A stretch of DNA of 64,000 bases from Eledone cirrhosa. Lineage: Eukaryota. Positions 5,655-58,601 of this stretch are shown piece after piece. The stretch's first letter is position 1; every line of letters begins with the position of its first letter. Under the pieces are notes generated by a model that was given only the letters and a program-made list of their open reading frames with translations, had not been told where the DNA came from and made no database searches. The position numbers and the translations under genes were made by a program. The DNA is taken from NCBI GenBank assembly GCA_964016885.1, contig OZ024742.1:136338001-136402000 (forward strand). Reading direction: 5' to 3'.

Positions 5655-5724
<70 letters not shown>

Positions 5725-5860
5725 CAAAAGGGATATTTAATTTGTTGGTAATTCAACAAATATAAATGTTTATAACTGATTCGAAGCACTCGACAGGTTT
5801 TCTGGAGTATAATATTCAATGATATTAAATAAATGGAAACTATATTTATAAAACCATATT

Positions 5861-5923
5861 TATTCTATTATATATATATTTCAAGGGTACCAAAACTTTG
5901 GTACGCTCTCATCAGATAAAATA
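5861..5923 (-). ncRNA. Type I hammerhead ribozyme (Penelope/retrozyme-type)
   Basis: The minus strand reads UAUUUUAU-CUGAUGA-GAGCGUACCAAA GU UUUGGUACCCUU-GAAA-UAUAUAUA-UA-AUAGAAUA. This gives an intact core, 8-bp stem I, 12-position stem II (one mismatch, G-U closing pair), self-complementary stem III and an AUA cleavage triplet. Confidence 0.75.
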
Positions 5924-6237
5924 CAAAGTTTGTTTTATAAATATTGACATATCCAGGAAGAAGATCTTATCGGTTCAAGTTTTTCCAGAAAAACTTGAAC
6001 CATACCAGTAATACACTGGAATAACTGCTGGTCTTGTGCCAAAAGTAGAAACAATTATTTCCCATCTGATGTTTTCTCTATATGTGCATCACTACTCATG
6101 ACTTATATTTCTATTTCTTTTTCACAATCTATTTTCCTGTCGAAGAGCTCAAAATGTCAACAACAAAATAAAATTCCCTCTTTTTTTATATTGTTAACAT
6201 TGGCTTGCCACAAATTTTGTACATTGATATCTAAGTA

Positions 6238-6300
<63 letters not shown>

Positions 6301-6305
<5 letters not shown>

Positions 6306-6504
6306 AACCAGTAAGACCCTGACAGCTGAGCTCAAGCCGTTTCGACGGCTAATTCTGGACTGATTTTAGTCCAGAATTAGCCGTCGAAACGGCTTGAGCT
6401 CAGCTGTCGGGGTCTTACTGGTTCCTATTACCCACTCTACTACCTCAAGTATTGAGTACTTTGGTGCGTTATGGTCCACCTGGTTCCTTACCACATTTCC
6501 TTTG

Positions 6505-6506
<2 letters not shown>
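6301..6506. repeat. (TA)n-embedded hairpin element with 61-bp inverted arms
   Basis: Arms 6301-6361 and 6368-6428 are reverse complements with one T:G pair. A unique tail runs to about 6506. Homologues at about 34549-34628 and 60401-60584. Confidence 0.85.
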
Positions 6507-6575
<69 letters not shown>

Positions 6576-6738
6576 TGTGTATGTACATATATATATATGT
6601 ATACTTATTTACTCTTATTTTCTATTATTTCCACAGAGCTGTGATTTCCAACCGACATTTTCTTATCAGGTCGGACATGAACTAAAAAAAAAAAATCTAC
6701 AAATGAAACCAACCAAGAGATAATATTACTATTTCACA

Positions 6739-6916
6739 ATGGATGGCAATTCTAAGAGTAAAAATAGAGAGTCTCGAACTCACAGGGCACGCCGAGCCAA
6801 AAATTCGGGAAGCAGAACTTACAGCTCTTCAGATGAAGATTTTCACTCGGATGATAACCTTCGTCCCTATGAGGAAGTTAAAATCGCGCACCATGATAAG
6901 AAATTGTCTGGCTTAG
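6739..6916 (+). CDS. TENM: Teneurin (Ten-m/Odz) first coding exon, intracellular N-terminus
   Basis: MDGNSKSKNRESRTHRARRAKNSGSRTYSSSDEDFHSDDNLRPYEEVK resembles the teneurin N-terminus (basic stretch, then YTSSS..SYSSSETLKAYD). Upstream acceptors tttccacag| (6636) or ttcttatcag| (6669). Strong donor AG|GTAAGT after 6916, phase 1. Confidence 0.8.
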
Positions 6917-7421
6917 GTAAGTAGTAAAAGCAAAAAAAAAAAAAGATATATACAAATAACAAATAAATAAAGATATGAAAATAGAATTATAAGCTTTCAC
7001 CCTATTTTTGACTACCAAAAAATTGTCTAATAACAGGGCATATAAGCCCCCATAAAGGATACATTTTTTTTTTCTTTTTAACCTGTTATTAAACTAGCTT
7101 ATAAAGTCAAAATATTGTGAAAGCTTATAGTAATTCTATTTTCAAAATTTTCAATCATCATGTGCAGATTTAGATAAAAATGTGTTTATATGTACGATTG
7201 TTGTTTCCCACGATTAAGAAAAAAAAACAACTCATTTTACTTCAAAATGTTCATATTTGTGTGACATGACTACATGCTCATCTTTATGTCCATGTGTGTG
7301 TGTGCATGTATGTATAATAAAACTGTATGTATGCATGAAATACATATATGTCCATATACACATACATACGCACACCTACATGTGTGTATATTTATATAGA
7401 TATATAGATATATGAATTCAT

Positions 7422-10488: not shown

Positions 10489-10924
10489 CATCATCATCAT
10501 CATCACCGTTGTTCTTCCACGCTAGCATGGGTTAGACGTGTAGTCCTGTTGTGGGCAATGTCCGGTCGGCTGACCTTGTCTTGCTCATACAGGAACTGAT
10601 TCTGGCTTGATTTCTACAGCTGGATGCCCTTCCTAACACCAACATCATTTACAGTGAGTGCTAGGTGCTTTTTTTCCGTGGCGCCTACACGTCCACTTTA
10701 CAGTGTGGGCTGGGTGCTTTTTTGCCATGGCACTTCCATGACCACTTTGCAGTGGAATGATATGGATCCCAGTCCTATCATCTCATTTCTACAGCTGAGT
10801 AAACTGGAGCAGTGTGAAATAAAGTGTCTTGCTCAAGGAAACAACACACCACCCGGTCCGAGAATTGAACTCACAACCTTTCGATTGCAAGCCTAATGCT
10901 CTAACCACTAAGCCATGCGCCTTC
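10489..10924 (-). mobile_element. Full-length tRNA-head/CORE-like SINE (family B) with internal ~40-bp repeats and (GAT)n tail
   Basis: The minus strand has A box tggcttagtggttagagc, B box gagttcaattc, CORE-like ccttgagcaagacacttta..ctcagctgtagaaatgag, then taggaagggcatccagctgtagaa..cccatgctagcgtggaa and (gat)n. Confidence 0.85.
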
Positions 10925-58100: not shown

Positions 58101-58466
58101 GCTGGCCTGCAGGCGCAGCACCTCCTTCTGTCATGGCTTATGGGGCCTGCCCACTGCAACAGTGCAATGCAGACCAGAGTCCAACAATGGCACCAGATGA
58201 TATGGCCGACTTCTATAACTATGCAAGCGCCGGGTCAGAAGGTGACATCGAGACAGACTACGGGATATCTTCCTCGCACCCCCGGTTCAGTCACCGGCAA
58301 AAATCAACTAATACATCACACCACCACATAGACTCTGAGAGTTCATCACTCTCCTCTTCAGCTGGCCTTGCTAGTAGCCACTTGAAAGACGCAAATGTCT
58401 GCGCGAAACTCTCTGATTCGGACGGCACCGATCAAGAAACTACTACCATACATTATGGCCATGCAG
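58101..58466 (+). CDS. TENM: Teneurin intracellular-domain exon (symmetric phase 1-1, 366 nt)
   Basis: Acceptor ccccag| and donor CAG|GTAAAA. GC/CpG-rich open frame encoding YASAGSEGDIETDYGISSSH..SSSLSSS..AKLSDSDGTDQE, resembling teneurin YSISAGSDADTE..SSCLSSR..LTLTDTEHEN. Confidence 0.8.
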
Positions 58467-58601
58467 GTAAAAAAATACAAATAAAAAATGTGTAATACAT
58501 TTTTAAAAAATTAATCTAAAAATTATTTTTAAAATAATTTTTAAAAATTCGAAAAATAAAAATAAATAAAAAAAAGTTAAGACAAAAGTTTTTTCAAAGG
58601 T

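What the first reader, a model, noticed from the sequence alone, without database searches (positions are those of the whole stretch)
5861..5923. Apparently intact antisense hammerhead ribozyme about 700 nt upstream of the first teneurin coding exon
Seen: the full core CUGAUGA/GAAA/AUA with all three stems formable. Predicted cleavage is between + coordinates 5869 and 5868 on a minus-strand RNA. Stem III is a (UA)n palindrome. Knowledge: Penelope-like elements and retrozymes carry type I hammerheads with palindromic stem III that can act as dimers. Inference: the extra TA units may give a stem III long enough to fold as a monomer. It sits in a ~250-bp element next to (TA)n.
Basis: partly seen in the sequence, partly recalled or inferred. 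Interest (0 to 1): 0.75.

Follow-up and report, generated by a model that had tools for sequence, protein, structure and literature searches.

The report
Penelope retrotransposon stub with intact hammerhead
This is an intact hammerhead (self-cutting RNA) motif in the broken-off end of a known kind of jumping gene that has left over 11,000 such motifs in this genome; it lies backwards in a teneurin intron, is predicted to cut poorly on its own, and is likely there by chance.

Summary
The motif is real: full core, stems I and II, predicted site 5869|5868 on the minus strand. It is ordinary. It lies in a 279-bp, 5'-truncated 3' end (5723-6001) of a Hydra-clade Penelope-like retroelement. Longer copies carry an RT plus C-terminal GIY-YIG ORF on the same strand as the hammerhead. 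The pattern occurs 11,349 times in the genome, control 0, so about one 64-kb window in five holds one. Stem II covaries at four pairs between subfamilies. The window copy has one extra TA (114 such copies against 5,051 standard). The extra TA sits in only one arm of 8 of 9 two-armed insertions, which points to slippage. Predicted monomer active-fold probability is 0.0014 (standard 0.0001), and no partner copy lies in the window. The element is antisense within a 19.5-kb 5'-UTR intron of teneurin, so it cannot cut the pre-mRNA in cis. Cleavage and antisense transcription are untested. Hydra-clade hammerheads are published, including one from octopus, and this scan noted them before on other DNA.

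The parts
5658..5722 (.). (TA)n microsatellite; insertion target at the element's 3' end
   Evidence: 34 of 43 distinct copies matched at this end continue into TA-type repeats, 4 into the element's own 5' UTR
5723..5986 (-). 5'-truncated 3' end (pseudo-LTR plus tail) of a Hydra-clade Penelope-like element
   Evidence: 39 other full-length matches at 96-98% identity among 40 scored of 1,550 candidates; linked to RT/GIY-YIG ORF in longer copies
5985..6001 (+). short inverted 5' arm (fold-back junction)
   Evidence: similar short arms at the same junction in L025 and L030
5861..5923 (-). type I hammerhead motif: stem I, CUGAUGA (5915-5909), stem II (5908-5883), GAAA (5882-5879), palindromic stem III strand (5879-5870), predicted cut 5869|5868
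5842..5944 (-). distal stem I extension, 13 bp (5944-5932 with 5854-5842), closing an internal loop
   Evidence: predicted; distal helices of different sequence also predicted in other subfamilies
5869..5879 (-). stem III strand with one extra TA unit relative to the family
6637..6916 (+). first coding exon of a teneurin gene (context, not part of the element); ATG 6739, in-frame TAA at 6721
   Evidence: spliced contig boundaries, upstream exon 19.5 kb away, homologues, teneurin GBD domain 60 kb beyond the window on the same strand

Best explanation
The motif is the sequence-intact hammerhead of a Hydra-clade Penelope-like retroelement, carried on a 5'-truncated 3' stub inserted at a (TA)n repeat in a teneurin intron, where it is likely a neutral passenger that is predicted to cut poorly as a monomer. 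[quoted passage not shown] Inferred: the element's protein cut the (TA)n target and primed reverse transcription on element RNA using TA microhomology, stopped about 35 nt upstream of position 5950 and folded back to give the short inverted arm; in the parent element two hammerheads in a tandem transcript pair through the palindromic stem III and cut the precursor; the template of this copy was uncut or re-ligated, because the copy spans the site; the extra TA arose by slippage during or after insertion.
For: Family: 11,349 exact pattern matches, reversed-pattern control 0. Parent: L031 and L189 hold RT, CxCX5C linker and GIY-YIG upstream of the same hammerhead, with an inverted arm at the 5' side. 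In 30 ORF-bearing copies: DKT-type motif 17, FDxTMGS 24, YIG/YVG 26, CxxC 20, CxH 29. Two ends: 74 and 56 of 149 distinct matches stop at query positions 220-228 and 135-144, like the 'tail' between two RT start sites in PMC11167929. Structure: 97.8% of cells paired, 4 stem II pairs change on both sides, slid controls 33-60%. Slippage: +TA in one arm only in 8 of 9 two-armed insertions; 9 changes for 11 rows on the tree. Monomer: P(active) 0.0014; no second copy in the window. Chance: 0.24 expected per 64 kb, 0.07 per this intron. Antisense and intronic.
Against: No cleavage assay. Folding energies omit loop-loop tertiary contacts; an axolotl hammerhead with a 2-bp helix III and a U.U at the base of helix II cleaved 22% in an hour as a monomer (PMC7229834, passages), so weak monomer activity here is possible. 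Stem I and stem III show no two-sided change. The 15 rows were hand-picked from related subfamilies found with a pattern that fixed the core, so the covariation amounts to a few events, and only 2 of its 5 measures plus the score beat all shuffles (pairs with two-sided change: 96 of 500 shuffles as high). The tree is poorly resolved (1 starred branch of 48). Clade assignment rests on motifs and by-eye likeness to the published Hydra-1_Obim protein, not on a tree. The unit is about 3.5 kb, longer than the 'generally <3 kb' given for the clade. No complete ORF was seen among the 150 matches scored (longest open frame 699 aa).
Confidence: 0.9

Rival explanations
1. The extra TA made this copy a monomer-active ribozyme that cuts an antisense transcript and has been co-opted to regulate teneurin.
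For: Core intact; the extra TA raises the predicted active fraction about tenfold; apart from the TA the copy has branch length 0 on the tree; it is 714 nt from the first coding exon.
Against: The active fraction stays at 0.14%. 114 copies share the variant and it recurs by slippage. Branch length 0 is equally what a young insertion gives, and the other rows were picked as best hits to this copy. Proximity to an exon is expected somewhere among more than 11,000 copies. No paper holds both 'teneurin' and 'hammerhead ribozyme'.
Confidence: 0.03
2. The stub is a copy of a short (about 270-nt) non-autonomous, SINE-like derivative of the Hydra element that is transcribed and mobilised as its own unit, not an independent truncation of full-length RNA.
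For: 21 of 30 best-matching direct arms begin within a 20-nt interval 28-48 nt upstream of position 5950, and most inverted arms begin there too.
Against: Start points are not identical (range -2 to -67, four far longer); the stub is colinear with the parent 3' end; no tandem arrays of the short unit were seen in these 30 loci; an RT pause or template-switch hot spot explains the cluster equally well.
Confidence: 0.15
3. The match is a chance arrangement in A+T-rich sequence.
For: Rfam finds no hammerhead; stems I and III are almost all A-U; the narrow fold has z of only -1.70.
Against: 11,349 matches against 0 control; compensatory changes in stem II; motif 73-86% identical between subfamilies against 50-56% for the 60 nt upstream (the motif was picked by a core pattern, which inflates this); same position and sense as in published Hydra elements.
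Confidence: 0.01

Closest known systems
Hydra clade of C-terminal EN+ Penelope-like elements, including Hydra-1_Obim of Octopus bimaculoides (Craig et al. 2021, PMC8557442; section 11, passages, Files S1 and S2 and search hits in the supplement read)
   Same: RT followed by GIY-YIG; DKT; CxCX5C linker; no CCHH cysteine pair in the nuclease core; CxxC and CxH near the C terminus; (TA)n target; sense hammerhead near the 3' end; palindromic 8-10-nt stem III strand; U at 11.1 as in many listed Hydra hammerheads; inverted 5'-truncated arm.
   Different: A different family from Hydra-1_Obim (its hammerhead sequence in File S2 does not match). RWR in place of RWK. 3' untranslated region about 1.1 kb, unit about 3.5 kb. 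Stem III is pure A-U with an AUA triplet, where the listed Hydra motifs have GU-H. Stem II has a C.C mismatch at the fourth position in all subfamilies sampled (partly fixed by the search pattern).
Minimal hammerheads of metazoan PLE pseudo-LTRs (Cervera and de la Pena 2014, PMC4209133; parts 1-2 of 4 read)
   Same: Type I, long helix II, short palindromic helix III proposed to work as a dimer, thousands of single copies from truncated elements, pairs on opposite strands 100-700 bp apart.
   Different: Here helix I is longer (8 bp plus a predicted 13-bp distal helix), there is no extra nucleotide between A9 and 10.1, and 10.1-11.1 is G.U (74), A-U (36), U.U (6) or G-C (2) in 118 parsed of 126 distinct strings.
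Poseidon element PAc of Anolis (Frangieh et al. 2024, PMC11167929; part 1 of 4 and passages read)
   Same: Two fixed 3' ends that define a tail; hammerhead near the pLTR-ORF junction; there, uncut RNA was the main insertion substrate and cleavage was dispensable in vitro.
   Different: Different clade. Here the two ends are about 85 nt apart and both lie upstream of the start codon, not inside the ORF.
Metazoan non-LTR retrozymes (PMC7229834, passages; bioRxiv 10.64898/2026.07.22.740005, part 1 of 5)
   Same: Type I hammerhead in a short non-coding repeat related to PLE pseudo-LTRs.
   Different: No tandem repeat of hammerhead-bearing units here; the copy is single and colinear with the end of a coding element.

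Membership tests
Type I hammerhead ribozyme | Core C3 U4 G5 A6 N7 G8 A9, G12 A13 A14, A15.1-U16.1, H17 | tested here: met
   consensus as quoted in PMC3088659
Type I hammerhead ribozyme | Stems I and II paired next to the core, stem I open-ended | tested here: met
   10.1-11.1 is a G.U wobble
Type I hammerhead ribozyme | Stable stem III in a monomer | tested here: not met
   3 A-U pairs plus 4-nt loop; +2.3 kcal/mol; P(active) 0.0014. A self-dimer of the strand is predicted at -5.6 kcal/mol. Weak stem III is the norm in metazoan type I motifs.
Type I hammerhead ribozyme | Covariation in helices | tested here: met
   4 stem II pairs with two-sided change; none in stems I and III
Type I hammerhead ribozyme | Match to an Rfam hammerhead model | tested here: not met
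Type I hammerhead ribozyme | Self-cleavage at H17 | not testable with these tools
   needs an assay; only assembled contigs were available
Hydra-clade PLE | Single ORF, RT followed by C-terminal GIY-YIG endonuclease | tested here: met
   (motifs read from translations; Pfam gives no RT or GIY-YIG family match)
Hydra-clade PLE | DKG modified to DKT | tested here: met
   KSDKT in 14 of 30 copies, near variants in 3 more
Hydra-clade PLE | RWK motif | tested here: inconclusive
   RLRWRA in 8 of 30 copies at the homologous place (many loci do not reach it intact); R replaces K
Hydra-clade PLE | CxCX5C linker; CCHH absent; CxxC and CxH near the C terminus | tested here: met
   true CxCX5C in 15 of 30 (19 regex hits less 3 microsatellite artefacts and 1 with a stop); one Cys only in the GIY-YIG core; CxxC 20, CxH 29 of 30
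Hydra-clade PLE | (TA)n target and sense hammerhead near the 3' end | tested here: met
Hydra-clade PLE | Length generally under 3 kb | tested here: not met
   about 3.5 kb from 5' UTR to tail; a tendency in the paper, not a diagnostic
Hydra-clade PLE | Placement in an RT phylogeny with published Hydra elements | not tested
   published proteins were seen in the supplement and compared by eye only
Naiad PLE | N-terminal GIY-YIG, DKA, no canonical hammerhead | tested here: not met
   nuclease is C-terminal, DKT, canonical core
Non-LTR retrozyme | Tandem repeats with a hammerhead in consecutive units | tested here: not met
   single copy in the window; second copies in 30 loci are almost all inverted

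The most novel reading that the evidence does not exclude
A single slippage event turned a dimer-dependent transposon hammerhead into a monomer-active one that cuts an antisense RNA in the teneurin 5'-UTR intron and so tunes a neural wiring gene in a cephalopod; the 114 extra-TA copies would be a pool of switched-on ribozymes among 5,000 silent siblings.
Probability: 0.03. Interest if true: 0.65.

Novelty: new member of a known kind. Interest (0 to 1): 0.12.

Why it matters
The locus itself is ordinary transposon debris. The family is useful as test material: what PLE hammerheads do in vivo is stated as unclear in PMC8557442, and cleavage was dispensable in vitro in PMC11167929. With more than 11,000 motif copies, several subfamilies and a natural stem III length variant (114 against 5,051), a strand-bias count in annotated introns (intact against broken cores, long against standard stem III) would show whether these motifs cut host pre-mRNA. 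Rfam and Pfam both miss the element, so such copies go unannotated.

Tried and rejected
Rfam at gathering score and at E up to 10: no hammerhead. Pfam on four ORF pieces: no RT or GIY-YIG family. Sequencing runs: no RNA holder listed on record; all four runs laid were contigs, which cannot show ends, strand or level. X24 holds 1,314 contigs on the element and none over 6081-6232; a part without cover proves nothing. Two runs from other organisms cover the exon (5 differences in 229 nt) and nothing over 5724-6012 at 90% likeness; contigs show presence, not absence, so this is not used as evidence of age. The protein atlas was unavailable. The next coding exon given by X24 (consensus of 2 contigs, agreement 0.67) was not found in the window, so the join from exon 6637 to the teneurin domains downstream is inferred, not traced. 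First guess that the parent was a Naiad: rejected, nuclease is C-terminal. Idea that the flanking (UA)n could complete stem III: rejected by reasoning, since a plain splint cannot bring A15.1 and U16.1 together. In-cis dimer partner: none in the window, and the inverted arm does not include the ribozyme. Literature: 'teneurin' + 'hammerhead ribozyme' 0 papers; 'cephalopod' + 'hammerhead ribozyme' 4 papers, 2 listed; 'hammerhead' + 'penelope' + 'octopus' 5 papers, 4 listed. These searches cover open-licence PMC and bioRxiv only. Repbase was not searchable and the bioRxiv preprint's supplements were not seen, so this exact family may already be catalogued. An earlier count said '7 of 8' two-armed insertions; the recount is 8 of 9.

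Full report
Observation. The minus strand at 5923-5861 reads as a type I hammerhead: stem I (5923-5916 with 5868-5861, 8 bp), CUGAUGA (5915-5909), stem II (5908-5883), GAAA (5882-5879), a palindromic (AU)5 strand (5879-5870) and A17 at 5869. All core positions match the consensus quoted in PMC3088659 (passages). Rfam has no hammerhead match here. The first pair of stem II is G.U.

It is a repeat. The window lies in a 3.0-Gb genome, likely a cephalopod mollusc (inferred from mollusc homologues of the exon, and Octopus and Argonauta proteins among the ORF's homologues). The 228-nt stretch 5723-5950 gave 1,550 candidates; the 40 scored were the window itself and 39 copies at 96-98% identity. A pattern for the core and inner stem II matches 11,349 times, reversed control 0. 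That is 0.24 expected per 64 kb and 0.07 for this intron. Copies end sharply in TA repeats, are truncated at the 5' side, and often carry an inverted arm. The window copy runs from 5723 to 5986 with a 17-nt inverted arm to 6001.

The parent. [quoted passage not shown] Thirty ORF-bearing loci (the output was cut, counts are) show KSDKT (14, plus 3 variants), FDxTMGS (24), LYRDD-type (23), a CxCX5C linker (15 true hits), YIG/YVG (26), CxxC (20), CxH (29) and RLRWRA (8). L189 has a 637-aa open frame, the hammerhead 1.1 kb downstream and an inverted arm upstream. These are the features given for the Hydra clade in section 11 of PMC8557442, whose Files S1 and S2 list an octopus member, Hydra-1_Obim, with a sense hammerhead near its 3' end. 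That family's ribozyme differs from this one. Its protein resembles this ORF by eye; no tree was built. No complete ORF was seen among 150 scored matches. In 10 of the 30 loci the motif marking the window's 3' end was found 5' of the ORF; in 9 of them it runs on about 60 nt to the start codon, and one of these also has a separate copy further out. This is the pseudo-LTR arrangement. Copies stop at two points about 85 nt apart (74 and 56 of 149 distinct matches), like the tail between two RT start sites described in PMC11167929.

Is the fold selected? In 118 parsed of 126 distinct motif strings the stem III strand plus H17 is 9 nt in 114, 11 nt in 3 and 6 nt in 1. On 15 hand-picked rows from four or so subfamilies, 97.8% of cells pair and four stem II pairs change on both sides; slid controls give 33-60%. 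Stems I and III change only on one side; the central change in stem III keeps self-complementarity through G.U, which fits a dimer but is a common transition. The rows are related and were found with a core pattern, so this is a few events. It supports selection on the master elements, not on this copy.

The extra TA. Genome-wide, 5,051 copies have the standard stem III and 114 have one more TA. Among 9 distinct two-armed insertions with the variant (11 rows, two duplicates), 8 have it in one arm only; on a poorly resolved tree it needs 9 changes for 11 rows, near the shuffled mean of 10.2. It is recurrent slippage. It gives 3 A-U pairs with a 4-nt loop; forming stem III costs +2.3 kcal/mol against +3.5, and the active fold is 0.0014 of the ensemble against 0.0001. 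The strand is predicted to self-dimerise at -5.6 kcal/mol, but there is no second copy in the window. Published minimal PLE hammerheads showed no detectable monomer cleavage and low dimer cleavage (PMC4209133). Against this, an axolotl motif with a 2-bp helix III cleaved 22% in an hour as a monomer (PMC7229834), so weak activity is not excluded.

Relation to teneurin. A contig of run X24 covers 6635-6917 and continues on both sides into other sequence. Its upstream part maps once, 19.5 kb away, and is followed by GT. The element therefore lies in a 5'-UTR intron, 714 nt before the exon. The exon's 59-residue peptide matches 8 proteins, 7 of them named as mollusc, one as teneurin-m-like, and the genome's only GBD_Tenm3 matches lie 60 kb past the window on the same strand. 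The ribozyme is antisense to this pre-mRNA and cannot cut it in cis. No data on antisense transcription were available.

Mechanism. Shown: family, parent ORF, two ends, target, covariation, intronic antisense position. Inferred: target-primed insertion at (TA)n with TA microhomology, 5' truncation with fold-back, dimer-dependent cleavage in tandem parent transcripts, an uncut or re-ligated template for this copy, later slippage. Untested: cleavage.

Verdict. A real motif and a new family member of a known clade, with no sign of a host role. Earlier notes of this scan reached the same reading for other loci; they were read after my own identification and are not counted as support. Interest 0.12.

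Noticed in passing
window 5971-6001 and loci L001-L030: 5' truncation hot spot: 21 of 30 direct arms start 28-48 nt upstream of position 5950, and most inverted arms start there too. Could be an RT pause, a template switch or the 5' end of a short RNA.
   Followed up: partly
window 5799-5818 and 5736-5762 (minus strand): Two small predicted hairpins: one has the short 3' end in or next to its loop, the other lies just before the long 3' end. Agrees with earlier notes on 'twin hairpins'; no covariation test was done.
   Followed up: partly
window 6303-6506: A second fold-back element between (TA)n tracts: a near-perfect palindrome of about 125 bp plus a tail of about 75 nt, with GTCGAAAC in a stem. 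Likely another Penelope-type stub; related sequence flanks L007, L010 and L027.
   Followed up: no
window 6003-6059: 3' part of a very high-copy repeat, likely a SINE tail, abutting the inverted arm; its 5' part is missing.
   Followed up: no
window 10858-10915 (-): tRNA-like match at the Rfam gathering score, likely a SINE head.
   Followed up: no
window 58101-58467 (+): Likely further coding exon with AG/GT ends and matching phase; not the exon joined in run X24, so possibly alternative. No Pfam match.
   Followed up: partly
L067:1-1036: Pieces of a different RT-type ORF (YADD motif), likely a LINE, directly upstream of a Hydra-type copy.
   Followed up: no
L088:3878-4320 and L092:2944-4190: Fragments of other, diverged Hydra-like ORFs nested beside or within copies of this family.
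   Followed up: no
L112:1450-1590: One copy folds into a nearly perfect long hairpin around the ribozyme (-45.5 kcal/mol), probably from local strand repair or conversion.
   Followed up: no
L156:1480-1506: The upstream 5'-UTR exon of teneurin contains a short upstream ORF of 7 codons.
   Followed up: no
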